Shown: piece by piece, positions 1 through 1,854 of the stretch
How positions within the stretch are numbered: position 1 is the first letter of the stretch
Layout: each line of letters starts with the position of its first letter
Position numbers and translations under genes: made by a program
The notes under the pieces: model-generated
Databases searched by the model: none
Seen by the model: only the letters and a program-made list of their open reading frames with translations
What the model was told of the DNA's origin: nothing
Source: a virus
Lineage: Duplodnaviria; Heunggongvirae; Uroviricota; Caudoviricetes
Virus record (IMG/VR): IMGVR_UViG_2751185956_000013
Strand: one strand, 5' to 3'
Length of the DNA: 12,536 nucleotides

Positions 1-825
1 CTATTTTTTATCCAGCTTCTTGGCGGCAGATTCTAATTGTTTGATGCTTTTTTCCGGTACGGGCAGATTCTCTGGCATTGTCCCGCCTAGCTCCTGGATT
101 GTTTGCCTAACTTTCCGGCCGACCTCGAAGTGAGTTTCATTAGCTTTTTGCTTCGATTTAACATTATCTCTGCGGAGCTTTTCTTCTGCCTGAGTCGCTC
201 GGAACAGGTTGGCTGCCAATTCGGTAGAACCCATGTGATCGAGTATCTTTTGGCTCTTTTTAAGACCTTTTCGCTGATGGATAGCCTTTTGGTCTAACCC
301 GCCATAAAGCCCCTTGTATCCGTGATTCTGGAAGATTGCAAAGTCCAATGTTGTTTCAACACCAGCTTGCTGTGCTGCCTCAACAAGTTGCTTGTTGTGT
401 TCCTTTAACTCGTTTCGGAGAAAAAGGCGCTTTTGATCCTCGCGGAGTCGCTTGAATGTTTCATCGTCAGCTAGTTCTTGCCGTCTGGTCTGTATTGCAA
501 AATATGTTTGCCCAGCAGCAATAACTGGCTTGCTAGGATCGCCGTTCTGCACAACTAGATAGCAGGCATATCTGGACAAATGAACATCTTCCAACTCTCG
601 TTGGGCACCAGACCCTAGAACAACCATTTTGGTGGTATCAACGAAATGGTCTGAAACCTCTTGGTTGCTGGTTTCACACGCCTGAGCTGCTCGTGATAGA
701 ACGTTTTGAAAGTTTCGCCAATCTCGATAATCCAGTAGTGGTGCCAAATCTCTTGCTGACCAATATTCCTGCCCTTCGCTTCCATATTGTCGTAAGTCTT
801 CAAATGGTTGATGGTGCTCGTTCAT
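1..825 (-). CDS. dinD: DinD-like DNA-damage-inducible protein D family protein (274 aa)
   Basis: Full ORF with stop at 1-3 and ATG at 823-825; GGAG-type RBS about 5 nt upstream. The N-terminus MNEHHQPFEDLRQYGSEGQEYWSARDLAPLLDYRDWRNFQ and the 274-aa length match what I recall of enterobacterial DinD. Identity is from memory, not a search. Confidence 0.6.
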   Translation of the reverse strand: MNEHHQPFEDLRQYGSEGQEYWSARDLAPLLDYRDWRNFQNVLSRAAQACETSNQEVSDHFVDTTKMVVLGSGAQRELEDVHLSRYACYLVVQNGDPSKPVIAAGQTYFAIQTRRQELADDETFKRLREDQKRLFLRNELKEHNKQLVEAAQQAGVETTLDFAIFQNHGYKGLYGGLDQKAIHQRKGLKKSQKILDHMGSTELAANLFRATQAEEKLRRDNVKSKQKANETHFEVGRKVRQTIQELGGTMPENLPVPEKSIKQLESAAKKLDKK

Positions 826-959
826 TGCTCACTCCATGTATTGGCTTGATGTTCAAGTGTGGTGACTTTTACTGGCGCTACTGCTAGCGGAGAGACTCAA
901 TATCTCACATCCTGATTAATGTATGATAGAGGTATCCCACAATAAGGAACCTGCCAGCC

Positions 960-1319
960 ATGAGAATGACCAGCCGCAAAAAAGAGATACTCAGCTACTT
1001 TGAACCTGATAGCCTCGATTGGGTTACTGGTGAGATTGGTGCGCCGCCGTTCGATGTGTCGGGTGTGGCCTACCTGCTTCATGGCATGGTGTCGTTCGAT
1101 AAGCGTCACCAGCTCGAATCAACCCGGCGCACACTGGAAAGCATGGTTGCTGGTGGACTGCTTGAGCGGGTGACAGTGTATGAGTCGCGCCAGATACGGC
1201 GCGGCGGTGAGACTAACGCAACGGTCGTGCGTTACGGTTTACCCGGTCATTGTGCTGTTATGCGCGATACTGGCGGCGCTGATAACGCAATATCAGGTGA
1301 ATACATGCGGGTCAGTTAA
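960..1319 (+). CDS. hypothetical protein (119 aa), only plus-strand gene in the window
   Basis: ORF starts MRMTSRKKEILSYFEPDSLDWVTGEIGAPPFDV; AAGGAA about 10 nt upstream of ATG 960 (a second in-frame ATG at 966 is an alternative start). Divergent from the DinD-like gene and convergent with the pRiA4b-family gene, with 3' ends overlapping by 8 nt. No family recognised. Confidence 0.45.
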   Translation: MRMTSRKKEILSYFEPDSLDWVTGEIGAPPFDVSGVAYLLHGMVSFDKRHQLESTRRTLESMVAGGLLERVTVYESRQIRRGGETNATVVRYGLPGHCAVMRDTGGADNAISGEYMRVS

Positions 1320-1854
1320 TAGCCTGCAATCTGTCGTTGATGCGGCTCAGGTCGTAAACCCGGCGTTCAATATCCAGCATCAGGAAATTGTGGATCTCGG
1401 CCTGCTCAGGATTATCAGACTCTCTGGCCTGTAATAGCAATTCATTGTAACCATGCAAGCCGCCTGAGTTTTCCGCCGGGGTGGTGCCTTTCCCACGCAG
1501 GCAGCTAATGGGCTGATTACTCGTATCGTGTGTTTGCTTCTCCAGCACAATGACGCAATCCCACCAGTCGCCAAAGTCATACGTGTAAACCAGCTTGTCA
1601 CCCTCATTCTGGAGCGCCGCCCATAGTGGCGTGATTGCCGCGTTACCCATGCTTTCATCCTCACCCCATACGCGATACTCGCTACCGGGATCACCTTTAC
1701 GCCCTTTCTCGAACATATACAGGTGTTCGTCATTCCAGCCAAAAGCTAACTGGATCACGGCATGAAGTTTACTAAAGGGGATTTGCTCTGGAACCAGCAC
1801 ACGCCGCCATATAGGTGGTTTGCTGTCTCGGATGGTTATCTTTAGCTGGTACAT
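1312..1854 (-). CDS. plasmid pRiA4b ORF-3 family protein (180 aa)
   Basis: Translation MYQLKITIRDSKPPIWRRVLVP...LHAVIQLAFGWNDEHLYMF...YTYDFGDWWDCVIVLE matches the family hallmarks (YQLKxTLR, PPIWRR, FGW..HL, YxYDFGDxW). AGGA RBS 5 nt upstream of ATG at 1852-1854. Confidence 0.75.
   Translation of the reverse strand: MYQLKITIRDSKPPIWRRVLVPEQIPFSKLHAVIQLAFGWNDEHLYMFEKGRKGDPGSEYRVWGEDESMGNAAITPLWAALQNEGDKLVYTYDFGDWWDCVIVLEKQTHDTSNQPISCLRGKGTTPAENSGGLHGYNELLLQARESDNPEQAEIHNFLMLDIERRVYDLSRINDRLQAIN

What the first reader, a model, noticed from the sequence alone, without database searches (positions are those of the whole stretch)
1..1854. Left-end cargo cluster: DinD-like gene without a visible SOS box, a pRiA4b ORF-3 family gene and a convergent 119-aa gene
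A DinD-family protein sits at the integrase-distal end of a mobile island. I searched 826-959 for a LexA box (CTG-N10-CAG, on both strands since it is palindromic) and found none, so this copy may be regulated differently from the chromosomal SOS gene. Next to it, a pRiA4b ORF-3 family protein (function unknown, typically on mobile DNA) and the only plus-strand gene of the window converge with 3' ends overlapping by 8 nt (1312-1319). That arrangement suggests mutual interference or shared termination. It is unclear whether these genes are island cargo or flanking chromosome.
Basis: partly seen in the sequence, partly recalled or inferred. Interest (0 to 1): 0.45.

Follow-up and report, generated by a model that had tools for sequence, protein, structure and literature searches.

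The report
Accessory-gene end of a phage satellite
The three genes are the cargo end of a small phage-dependent island inserted into the E. coli yicC gene. Its DinD copy is an extra, SOS-independent version that sits beside the classic chromosomal dinD and is probably an anti-phage or RecA-modulating accessory gene; this is a fairly ordinary kind of cargo.

Summary
In detail: dinD-like gene (1-825, -), a 119-aa gene (960-1319, +), a pRiA4b ORF-3 gene (1312-1854, -), an 8-nt 3' overlap, and no LexA box.

All three genes are island DNA, not flanking chromosome. In near-identical E. coli genomes the ~12.6-kb island (integrase, AlpA, P4-type primase, PerC: a PICI-type satellite) sits in the 3' end of yicC. 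Its attL core lies ~110-130 nt left of window position 1. The real chromosomal dinD, with its canonical LexA box, follows just beyond, so there are two dinD copies in tandem.

The 119-aa protein is a winged-helix core gene of this island family across Enterobacterales. It is flanked by two variable cargo slots.
- The outer slot holds DinD here. In relatives it holds a GmrSD-like pair, a type II restriction-modification pair, a PDC-M59 pair, or nothing.
- The inner slot holds the pRiA4b gene here.

DinD matches the PADLOC candidate defence family PDC-S13. Half of its closest relatives are embedded in type I restriction-modification operons, and it recurs on Streptococcus satellites. LexA control is the exception in this family (1 of 80 loci).

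Verdict: a new member of a known kind (satellite accessory or defence cargo). The functions of all three proteins remain inferred.

The parts
1..825 (-). Island-borne DinD-family gene (274 aa): N-terminal Bro-N domain plus a highly conserved C-terminal helical region. It is variable cargo in the outer slot, between the 119-aa gene and attL.
   Evidence: NF008573 E 1.9e-148; Bro-N; PADLOC PDC-S13 E 3e-126. The cassette 1-915 is in only 34 of 5426 E. coli genomes, all >=99.8% identical, and is absent from otherwise collinear islands (L003, L013, L014). dN/dS is ~0.01-0.02 against the Pectobacterium copy.
826..959 (.). Divergent intergenic region between dinD and the 119-aa gene. It has no LexA box. 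Sequence shared with dinD-less islands starts at ~916, at a -10-like TGTATGATA just upstream of the 119-aa gene.
   Evidence: LexA matrix maximum 0.65 bits. No sigma-70 consensus match at the scan threshold. Comparison with L003 and with the K-12, Salmonella, Pectobacterium and Yersinia upstream regions. The promoter assignment is inference.
960..1319 (+). 119-aa winged-helix protein ('p119'). It is the conserved core gene at the integrase-distal end of this island family and the only + strand gene.
1312..1319 (.). 8-nt overlap of the two convergent stop regions (TCAGTTAA).
   Evidence: Sequence. Conserved in L014 and L100. No terminator-like site and no unusual fold.
1312..1854 (-). pRiA4b ORF-3 / MM3350-like protein (180 aa). 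It occupies the inner variable slot between the 119-aa gene and the conserved 61-aa gene. Function unknown.
   Evidence: PF07929 E 1.1e-42; PDB 2i1s E 3e-21. Adjacent to p119 in nearly all listed rows of the 385 E. coli genomes that match window 916-1320 and in Klebsiella. Other genes take its place in Yersinia, Pantoea and other Klebsiella islands. Distant homologs occur on 2697 plasmid records.
1888..1917 (-). Promoter-like site (TTTACA-18-TATCGT) upstream of the pRiA4b gene.
   Evidence: Consensus scan. The number of such sites is no greater than in shuffles, so this is weak evidence.
1975..2160 (-). Conserved 61-aa gene that marks the inner boundary of the second cargo slot.
   Evidence: Homologs (40-74% identity) at the equivalent position in L005-L010, L019 and L022; phrog_7271.
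3669..6167 (-). P4-family primase of the island (context: core replication gene).
   Evidence: RefSeq annotation of near-identical islands.
10004..10207 (-). AlpA-type HTH regulator (context: PICI core gene).
   Evidence: 78% identical to the Salmonella L098 gene that carries PF05930 Phage_AlpA.
11283..12536 (-). Tyrosine integrase. Arm-type repeats and the attR core (the last 21 nt of yicC) lie 63-210 nt beyond the window's right end.

Best explanation
Positions 1-1854 are the integrase-distal accessory end of a ~12.6-kb PICI-type phage satellite (integrase, AlpA, P4-family primase, SSB, PerC; no structural genes annotated). The satellite is integrated by site-specific recombination into the last ~20 nt of yicC.

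The 119-aa gene is a conserved winged-helix DNA-binding core gene of this satellite family, most likely a regulator acting at the island end or att region. It is bracketed by two cargo slots.

- Outer slot (between the 119-aa gene and attL). Here it holds a stand-alone DinD-family gene. I think this gene is expressed independently of LexA. I think it works as a two-module conflict protein. A swappable N-terminal Bro-N module would recognise a DNA or protein target. The very conserved C-terminal module would be the effector. For E. coli DinD, that activity is reported to be inhibition of RecA-mediated DNA strand exchange. The benefit to host and satellite would be interference with competing phages, or control of RecA-dependent processes during infection.
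- Inner slot. It holds a pRiA4b ORF-3 (MM3350-like) gene of unknown biochemical role, one of several alternatives found at that place.

Shown: gene identities, island boundaries, cargo versus core status, absence of a LexA box, strong purifying selection, and the association of the family with restriction-modification operons and satellites.

Inferred: expression, the anti-phage role, the RecA-directed mechanism for this copy, and the DNA target of the 119-aa protein.
For: Boundaries
- The attL core TTACTCAATATTGAATCTG is a duplicate of the yicC 3' end. Together with the arm repeats GGTACACC..GTGTACACC it lies 27-130 nt left of the dinD stop codon. The matching arm and core lie at the yicC end beyond int.
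- K-12 shows the empty site.
- The same dinD-arm-core terminus is conserved in Salmonella, Pectobacterium and Yersinia.
- A circular form of a related island exists as a Klebsiella 'plasmid'.

Core versus cargo
- p119 and the 61-aa gene are conserved across genera.
- The outer slot holds DinD, a PDC-M59A/B pair, a GmrSD-like pair, a type II restriction enzyme plus Dcm, or nothing.

DinD
- PADLOC PDC-S13, E 3e-126, plus a model of a DinD-HsdS fusion.
- 38 of 78 close relatives are adjacent to hsdM, hsdS or hsdR genes.
- It lies next to int on 15 Streptococcus satellite records, as also noted in PMC4129442 and PMC10602874. Those papers cite Uranga 2011 for RecA inhibition.
- dN/dS is ~0.01-0.02 with dS >1.
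- The N-terminal module is exchanged between chromosomal alleles.

LexA and class
- No LexA box here, and a LexA box in only 1 of 80 family loci.
- The island class matches published E. coli PICIs (PMC11773190, PMC6092414).
Against: - No experiment shows that any DinD protein blocks phage. PDC-S13 is only a candidate family, and I found no paper on it.
- No promoter was identified for the island dinD, so expression is assumed.
- The C-terminal effector could not be modelled (pLDDT 40-60) and has no structural match.
- Helper-phage induction of this island has not been shown.
- The pRiA4b protein and p119 have no PADLOC match.
- Sampling of the cargo slots covers about a dozen loci and is not systematic.
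Confidence: 0.6

Rival explanations
1. The island DinD is not a defence gene. It is a RecA/SOS modulator that serves the satellite's own life cycle. For example, it could damp RecA activity to tune induction of the helper prophage, or limit recombination of the satellite with related DNA.
For: E. coli DinD is reported to inhibit RecA strand exchange (Uranga 2011, as cited in PMC4129442 and PMC10602874). DinD recurs on satellites of both Gram-negative and Gram-positive hosts, next to att or int. In the circular form, dinD would read across attP toward int (inferred).
Against: Many islands of the same family lack DinD and carry recognised restriction or defence genes in the same slot, so it is not needed for the life cycle. 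Half of the close relatives sit in type I restriction-modification operons, away from any satellite. Deleting the dinD-like gene of a pneumococcal island had no large effect on transformation rates (PMC10602874).
Confidence: 0.25
2. The three genes form one functional system: the winged-helix 119-aa protein regulates or neutralises DinD and/or the pRiA4b protein, and the convergent overlap couples their expression.
For: p119 is divergent from dinD across a shared 134-nt intergenic region and converges on the pRiA4b gene with a conserved 8-nt overlap. The same divergent p119-dinD arrangement occurs in Yersinia similis.
Against: Each gene occurs without the others. p119 occurs with neither (Klebsiella L007-L010) and with other neighbours (L005, L006). 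dinD occurs at island ends without p119 (Salmonella L098, Photorhabdus L022). The pRiA4b family occurs on thousands of plasmid records in other contexts.
Confidence: 0.12
3. The dinD in the window is the ordinary chromosomal SOS gene, or a recent local duplicate of it, and the island boundary lies to its right.
For: The island sits in the chromosomal dinD neighbourhood, and the gene has the same length and orientation as the chromosomal copy.
Against: The attL core and arm sites lie to its left. Island-bearing genomes have a second, chromosomal dinD with the LexA box. The two copies are only 75% identical at the DNA level and 85% at the protein level. The closest relatives are the Pectobacterium and Salmonella copies, which share the homologous arm and core.
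Confidence: 0.02

Closest known systems
Gram-negative phage-inducible chromosomal islands (E. coli PICIs such as EcCICFT073, EcCIEDL933, EcCIMP1)
   Same: Integrase, AlpA-type regulator, antirepressor, P4-family primase and PerC; size ~12-20 kb; no structural or lysis genes annotated; a specific att site; accessory genes at the integrase-distal end (PMC6092414, PMC11773190).
   Different: The att site is the 3' end of yicC. The end is marked by an opposite-strand winged-helix gene that I did not find in the sequenced end of EcCICFT073. No helper phage, induction or packaging function has been shown.
Hotspots of antiviral systems in P2 phages and P4 satellites (Rousset et al. 2022, as cited in PMC13612085; my knowledge of its content)
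   Same: Conserved flanking genes bracket a slot whose content changes between otherwise collinear elements and is enriched in defence genes.
   Different: This is not a P4-like element: no psu, delta or sid is annotated. There are two slots on either side of one small regulator-like gene. Only about a dozen loci were sampled here.
E. coli chromosomal DinD (PcsA), an SOS-regulated inhibitor of RecA-mediated strand exchange
   Same: Same NCBIfam equivalog, same length, 75% (K-12 type) or 85% (second chromosomal type) amino-acid identity, with a nearly invariant C-terminal two thirds.
   Different: No LexA box. It is carried inside a mobile island. It is closest to the Pectobacterium and Salmonella copies (97% and 96%). 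Its activity has not been tested.
DinD, RhuM and Fic genes embedded in type I restriction-modification operons
   Same: The same DinD family (65-80% identity) lies between hsdM and hsdS in many phyla, often with Fic or RhuM genes (also noted in PMC9881135).
   Different: Here DinD stands alone, and no hsd genes are present in the island.
DinD-like genes of streptococcal phage-like chromosomal islands and satellite phages (ScaCI, PRCI, Javan elements)
   Same: A full-length DinD homolog (53-56% identity) is carried as an accessory gene next to the att/int end of a small primase-bearing satellite (PMC4129442, PMC10602874).
   Different: Different satellite lineage and host phylum. In those elements the gene lies on the integrase side of the integrated island.
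PADLOC candidate system PDC-S13
   Same: Full-length match, E 3e-126.
   Different: This is a candidate family defined by its genomic neighbourhood. No phenotype is known to me, and none was found in the paper library.
PF07929 PRiA4_ORF3 / MM3350-like proteins (PDB 2i1s)
   Same: Full-length domain match. The family is typically found on mobile DNA.
   Different: The function of the family is unknown, so there is nothing to compare beyond fold and family.

Membership tests
DinD (NCBIfam NF008573, DNA damage-inducible protein D) | Full-length match to the equivalog model above its curated cutoff | tested here: met
   493.5 bits against a cutoff of 242, residues 1-274.
DinD (NCBIfam NF008573, DNA damage-inducible protein D) | LexA box / SOS inducibility (the property that named the gene) | tested here: not met
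   No CTG-N10-CAG, and a matrix maximum of 0.65 bits in 780-1000 against 26.1 for the K-12 box. Only 1 of 80 family loci has such a box. Inducibility itself cannot be tested here.
DinD (NCBIfam NF008573, DNA damage-inducible protein D) | Inhibition of RecA filaments | not testable with these tools
   Known only for the K-12 protein (Uranga 2011, as cited in PMC4129442). The C-terminal region is ~90% identical.
PICI-type phage satellite (Gram-negative) | Integrase + AlpA-type regulator + primase/replication module in the conserved order | tested here: met
   The AlpA assignment rests on 78% identity to a gene carrying PF05930.
PICI-type phage satellite (Gram-negative) | Specific att site with direct repeats; element size ~10-20 kb; no phage structural or lysis genes | tested here: met
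   Core repeats in the yicC 3' end and ~12.6 kb between cores. RefSeq annotation lists no structural genes. This was not checked exhaustively with HMMs.
PICI-type phage satellite (Gram-negative) | Excision and circularisation | tested here: inconclusive
   A related island (63-93% protein identity) is deposited as a circular Klebsiella 'plasmid' with an int-attP-p119 junction. Nothing is known for this island itself.
PICI-type phage satellite (Gram-negative) | Induction by a helper phage and packaging in its particles | not testable with these tools
   No data.
P4-like satellite | [quoted passage not shown] | tested here: inconclusive
   None is annotated in the near-identical RefSeq islands. 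I did not run dedicated HMMs.
Anti-phage defence gene (PADLOC PDC-S13) | Match to the family HMM | tested here: met
   E 3e-126 over residues 2-274.
Anti-phage defence gene (PADLOC PDC-S13) | Location among defence genes, or in a slot that holds defence genes in relatives | tested here: met
   The slot holds a GmrSD-like pair, a type II restriction enzyme plus Dcm, or PDC-M59 in relatives. 38 of 78 homologs lie in type I restriction-modification operons. The Pectobacterium copy lies next to AbiEii and HipA genes.
Anti-phage defence gene (PADLOC PDC-S13) | Protection against phage infection | not testable with these tools
   No experimental report was found.
PF07929 PRiA4_ORF3 | Domain match above the gathering score | tested here: met
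   146.2 bits against 26.6, covering 3-167 of 173 model positions.
Winged-helix DNA-binding proteins (for the 119-aa protein) | Three-helix bundle plus beta-hairpin wing fold | tested here: met
RgdR (ECs1581), the regulator reported in E. coli PICIs | 99-aa basic protein with an RGD motif at residues 20-22 | tested here: not met
   The 119-aa protein differs in length and has no RGD motif (PMC3378721). No sequence comparison was possible because the RgdR sequence was not at hand.

The most novel reading that the evidence does not exclude
The classic SOS gene dinD of E. coli may itself be a domesticated cargo gene of a yicC-targeting phage satellite. On this reading DinD proteins are modular conflict effectors with exchangeable N-terminal recognition domains.

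Supporting observations:
- The chromosomal dinD lies exactly at this satellite family's att site, in the same orientation as the satellite's terminal dinD.
- It occurs in two allele types. Their 3' ~600 nt are nearly identical (dS 0.08), but their first 85 codons are deeply diverged (dS 1.5, dN 0.42).
- A sequence resembling part of the yicC 3' end lies 20 nt after its stop codon (2-4 of 1000 shuffles reach the score).
- Salmonella has dinD in this neighbourhood only at the end of such an island.

LexA control would then be a secondary, lineage-specific acquisition.
Probability: 0.3. Interest if true: 0.6.

Novelty: new member of a known kind. Interest (0 to 1): 0.38.

Why it matters
- It places the island boundary and shows that E. 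coli strains with this satellite carry two DinD genes 350 bp apart: one SOS-controlled, one not.
- It identifies a small winged-helix gene, bracketed by two cargo slots, as a handle for mining accessory and defence genes in a widespread family of enterobacterial satellites.
- It adds comparative evidence that DinD belongs to phage-host conflict rather than DNA repair. DinD has been used as an SOS reporter gene (dinD-lacZ), yet its physiological role remains unclear to me. The evidence is its association with restriction-modification operons, its recurrence on satellites, and N-terminal module swapping.
- If that reading holds, it gives a direct experiment for an old unexplained gene. None of this is surprising in kind, because satellites are already known to carry defence cargo.

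Tried and rejected
- Capture of the neighbouring chromosomal dinD by aberrant excision. Rejected: the island copy lies inside the arm sites. Its flanks are homologous to island ends in Pectobacterium (81.6% DNA, 97% protein identity) and Yersinia, so the cassette is old in this island family.
- Structure of DinD. The AF2 model is good only for the Bro-N domain (overall pLDDT 60; C-terminal part 40-60). Foldseek against PDB gave nothing below E 0.4.
- Shared terminator at the convergent overlap. No terminator-like site, and fold z-scores of -0.09 and 0.94.
- SOS control of the whole island through the LexA-like site at 10257. The site is present only in this island variant and is absent from L001 and L003, so it is not a family feature.
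- A short palindrome, CGCTA-N4-TAGCG, sits where the LexA box would be and is shared with the Salmonella island copy. It is too short to be significant.
- 119-aa protein = RgdR. Length and motif do not fit, and there is no homolog in the sampled end of EcCICFT073.
- Literature searches for PDC-S13, DinD with defence, and pRiA4b ORF-3 function found nothing on function. Uranga 2011 is not held in the library.
- A distant pRiA4b homolog lies on IncN and other plasmids beside qnrS1 and ISKpn19. This shows mobility but not function.
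Full report
**What is in the sequence**

- The first matches the NCBIfam DinD equivalog over its full length (493 bits, cutoff 242) and has a Pfam Bro-N domain at residues 11-105.
- The third is a full-length PF07929 PRiA4_ORF3 protein (E 1.1e-42). It is related to the structural-genomics protein 2i1s.
- The 119-aa ORF matches no Pfam, NCBIfam, PHROG or PADLOC family. 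It is nevertheless a real gene: 537 homolog clusters of conserved length, all from Enterobacterales.
- The two convergent genes overlap by 8 nt (TCAGTTAA, 1312-1319).

**LexA**

There is no CTG-N10-CAG in 826-959. I built a weight matrix from 25 E. coli LexA boxes recalled from the literature, so the matrix is my own reconstruction.
- The best site in 780-1000 scores 0.65 bits, the same as shuffled sequence.
- The K-12 dinD box scores 26.1 bits, and the training sites score 12.8-26.1.

However, among 80 DinD-family loci from one genome per species, only the Shigella/E. coli chromosomal copy has such a box within 250 nt upstream. This test uses the E. coli-type motif, and many of those genes sit inside operons. 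LexA control is therefore the exception in this family.

**Cargo or chromosome**

The window is 98.9% identical to an island in E. coli XJ5.2 and closely similar to islands in other strains. The gene order there is:

yicG | dinD (chromosomal) | [dinD | 119-aa gene | pRiA4b | 61-aa gene | (PerC) | SSB | ... P4-family primase ... antirepressor | AlpA-type HTH | 316-aa gene | integrase] | yicC.

K-12 has the empty site, yicC-dinD-yicG.
- The left junction carries a duplicate of the yicC 3' end (TTACTCAATATTGAATCTG). It is followed, on the chromosomal side, by the original yicC terminator and the chromosomal dinD promoter with its box CTGTATTTATATACAG.
- The right junction is the functional end of yicC, rebuilt by island DNA.
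- Arm-type repeats (GGTACACC..GTGTACACC) lie just inside both junctions.
- In window coordinates the attL core is at about -129 to -111, the arm repeat at -46 to -27, and the chromosomal LexA box at -304 to -289.

All three genes of the finding are therefore inside a ~12.6-kb island that integrates into yicC. Strains carrying it have two dinD genes in tandem, 350 bp apart.

The chromosomal copy is a pseudogene in one such strain. It is truncated in a strain whose island lacks dinD.

**What kind of island**

Its content is integrase, AlpA-type regulator, AntA/AntB antirepressor, Icd-like protein, P4-family primase, SSB and PerC, with no structural genes annotated. This content and its size match the Gram-negative PICIs described for E. 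coli (PMC6092414, PMC11773190).

A Klebsiella record deposited as a circular 22.9-kb 'plasmid' is a related island in circular form. In it the integrase and the 119-aa gene face each other across attP. Helper dependence of the present island has not been tested.

**Core and cargo**

Homologs of the 119-aa protein occupy the same terminal, opposite-strand position in related islands of Yersinia, Pantoea and Klebsiella. A conserved 61-aa gene lies a short way inward.

Outer slot, between the 119-aa gene and the island end:
- DinD here.
- A Fic-containing pair matching PADLOC PDC-M59A/B in Yersinia.
- Two GmrSD-like proteins in Pantoea.
- An HNH type II restriction enzyme plus a cytosine methylase in another E. 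coli.
- Nothing in many islands, including otherwise collinear E. coli ones where homology to the window starts at position 916.

Inner slot, between the 119-aa and 61-aa genes:
- The pRiA4b gene in E. coli and in a circular Klebsiella relative. 385 of 5426 E. coli genomes match window 916-1320, and nearly all listed hits also cover a pRiA4b-family CDS.
- Unrelated ORFs elsewhere.

So the finding is not one cluster. It is one core gene flanked by two variable slots.

**The 119-aa protein**

**The DinD cassette**

Window 1-915 occurs in only 34 of 5426 complete E. coli genomes and is >=99.8% identical in all of them. The adjoining island DNA differs by 1-5%.

It is not a copy of the neighbouring chromosomal gene:
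- DNA identity to the two chromosomal allele types is 68.5% and 75%. Protein identity is 75% and 85%.
- Its nearest relatives are in Pectobacterium (97% protein, 81.6% DNA over 1144 nt) and Salmonella (96% protein). The Pectobacterium homology includes the upstream region and the att arm and core. The Salmonella copy is the last gene of an AlpA/DUF927-primase island in the same chromosomal neighbourhood.
- A 77% identical copy sits divergently next to a 119-aa homolog in Yersinia similis.
- Between the E. coli and Pectobacterium copies, synonymous sites are saturated (dS >1) while dN is 0.01-0.02. The protein is under strong purifying selection.

**What the family context says**

DinD is a very large family (at least 8000 clusters). 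Members keep 65-80% identity across many phyla.
- In 38 of 78 loci the gene is directly adjacent to type I restriction-modification genes, typically hsdM-dinD-hsdS-(fic or rhuM)-hsdR. Pfam confirms the neighbours. The same arrangement is noted in PMC9881135.
- PADLOC lists the family as candidate PDC-S13 and has a model of a DinD-HsdS fusion.
- Full-length homologs lie next to the integrase of 15 Streptococcus satellite records. They were noted earlier as accessory genes of streptococcal islands (PMC4129442, PMC10602874).
- The Pectobacterium copy lies beside AbiEii and HipA genes.
- The two chromosomal E. coli alleles share flanks, LexA box and the 3' ~600 nt (dS 0.08). Their first 85 codons, the Bro-N domain, are deeply diverged (dS 1.5, dN 0.42). 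The second type is closer to the island type there. The N-terminal module is evidently exchanged as a unit.

**Mechanism**

I commit to the following, in decreasing order of certainty.
- Shown: a mobile satellite with a cargo slot, a selected and intact DinD gene without LexA control, and family links to restriction systems and satellites.
- Inferred: the island DinD is expressed from its own or a read-through promoter. None was detected by a consensus scan.
- Inferred: it acts as a two-part conflict protein. The variable Bro-N module provides recognition. The conserved C-terminal module provides the activity, which for the K-12 protein is inhibition of RecA-mediated strand exchange (Uranga 2011, as cited in PMC4129442).
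- Whether the benefit is exclusion of competing phages (my preferred reading) or tuning of RecA/SOS for the satellite itself cannot be decided here.
- The pRiA4b protein remains of unknown function. Distant relatives are passengers of transposons and plasmids.
- The convergent overlap has no terminator or stable structure. Interference is possible but untested.

**Novelty and score**

Satellites carrying variable accessory and defence genes at conserved positions are well known. So is DinD on Gram-positive satellites.

New here:
- the yicC att site lying next to the chromosomal dinD;
- the tandem LexA-plus and LexA-minus copies;
- the winged-helix gene with two flanking slots;
- the modular N-terminal exchange in DinD.

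I rate this a new member of a known kind, interest 0.38.

The most novel reading not excluded is that E. coli's own dinD is a domesticated satellite cargo gene.
- It lies at the satellite's att site, in the same orientation as the satellite's terminal dinD.
- A yicC-like fragment lies 20 nt after its stop codon. Only 2-4 of 1000 shuffles reach that alignment score, and the test was post hoc.
- In the single Salmonella locus examined (L098), dinD is the last gene of such an island and no other dinD lies between it and yicG.

I give this reading a probability of 0.3.

Noticed in passing
window 10257-10276: A near-consensus LexA box, AGCTGTATAGATATACAATG (18.0 bits, within the range of real sites but with CAA in place of CAG), lies ~50 nt upstream of the AlpA-type gene that heads the long leftward operon. 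It is present in the 98.9% identical island L002 but absent from the related islands L001 and L003.
   Followed up: partly
L001 14828-15652; L014 3995-4597: In strain BKQ37E, which carries the island dinD, the chromosomal dinD is a pseudogene (internal stop). In strain CE0026a, whose island lacks dinD, the chromosomal dinD is annotated as a shortened 603-nt gene.
   Followed up: no
L004 4761-5585 versus L096 7001-7825 (chromosomal dinD alleles): E. coli has two chromosomal dinD allele types with identical flanks and LexA box. The 3' ~600 nt are 93-100% identical, but the first 225 nt are only 55-71% identical (dS 1.5, dN 0.42 for codons 1-85). This is a recombinational swap of the Bro-N module.
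   Followed up: yes
L004 5605-5628 (20 nt after the K-12 dinD stop codon): TGTTGATTGAGACACCCGATGCG resembles a segment of the yicC 3' end (TGTTGATTGAGCAGATGCG). Only 2-4 of 1000 shuffles reach the alignment score. It may be a relic of an old att duplication, but the test was post hoc.
   Followed up: partly
L100 (NZ_CP033626.1, whole record): A Klebsiella pneumoniae 'plasmid' of 22.9 kb is a related island in circular form, with int-attP-p119-pRiA4b adjacent. About 4.3 kb is repeated at both ends of the record, probably an assembly overlap.
   Followed up: partly
L005 6819-7832: The PDC-M59A protein in the outer slot of a Yersinia island has a weak match to a DinD C-terminal model (PDC-S13, E 2e-5, residues 153-228) and is paired with a Fic protein. 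This echoes the DinD-Fic pairing seen in type I restriction-modification operons.
   Followed up: no
H120/H121 (Campylobacter phages A11a and A18a, 174 kb): These records, deposited as Campylobacter phages, encode a DinD 75% identical over its full length to the E. coli island protein. That is a strikingly high identity across such distant hosts.
   Followed up: no
window 866-882 (on the dinD sense strand, where the LexA box sits in K-12): A short palindrome, CGCTA-GCAG-TAGCG, is also present as CGCTA-GTAT-TAGCG in the Salmonella island copy. It might be an alternative operator, but it is too short to be significant.
   Followed up: partly
H10-H30 (for example NZ_CP010145.1 3204297-3207799): About 25 genomes carry the same dinD cassette, but with an extra ~1.1 kb and one more hypothetical gene somewhere within the region corresponding to window 916-2400.
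   Followed up: no
L095 704-6617: A different, smaller island (68% identical integrase, Zn-ribbon primase plus DUF5906/Pox_D5 helicase) uses the same yicC att site and ends directly before the chromosomal dinD promoter. The yicC 3' end is therefore a shared integration site for several island types.
   Followed up: partly
window 10277-10300: A perfect 7-bp inverted repeat, GGTACTG-N8-CAGTACC, followed by TTTT lies between the 316-aa gene and the AlpA-type gene. It is probably the terminator of the upstream gene.
   Followed up: no
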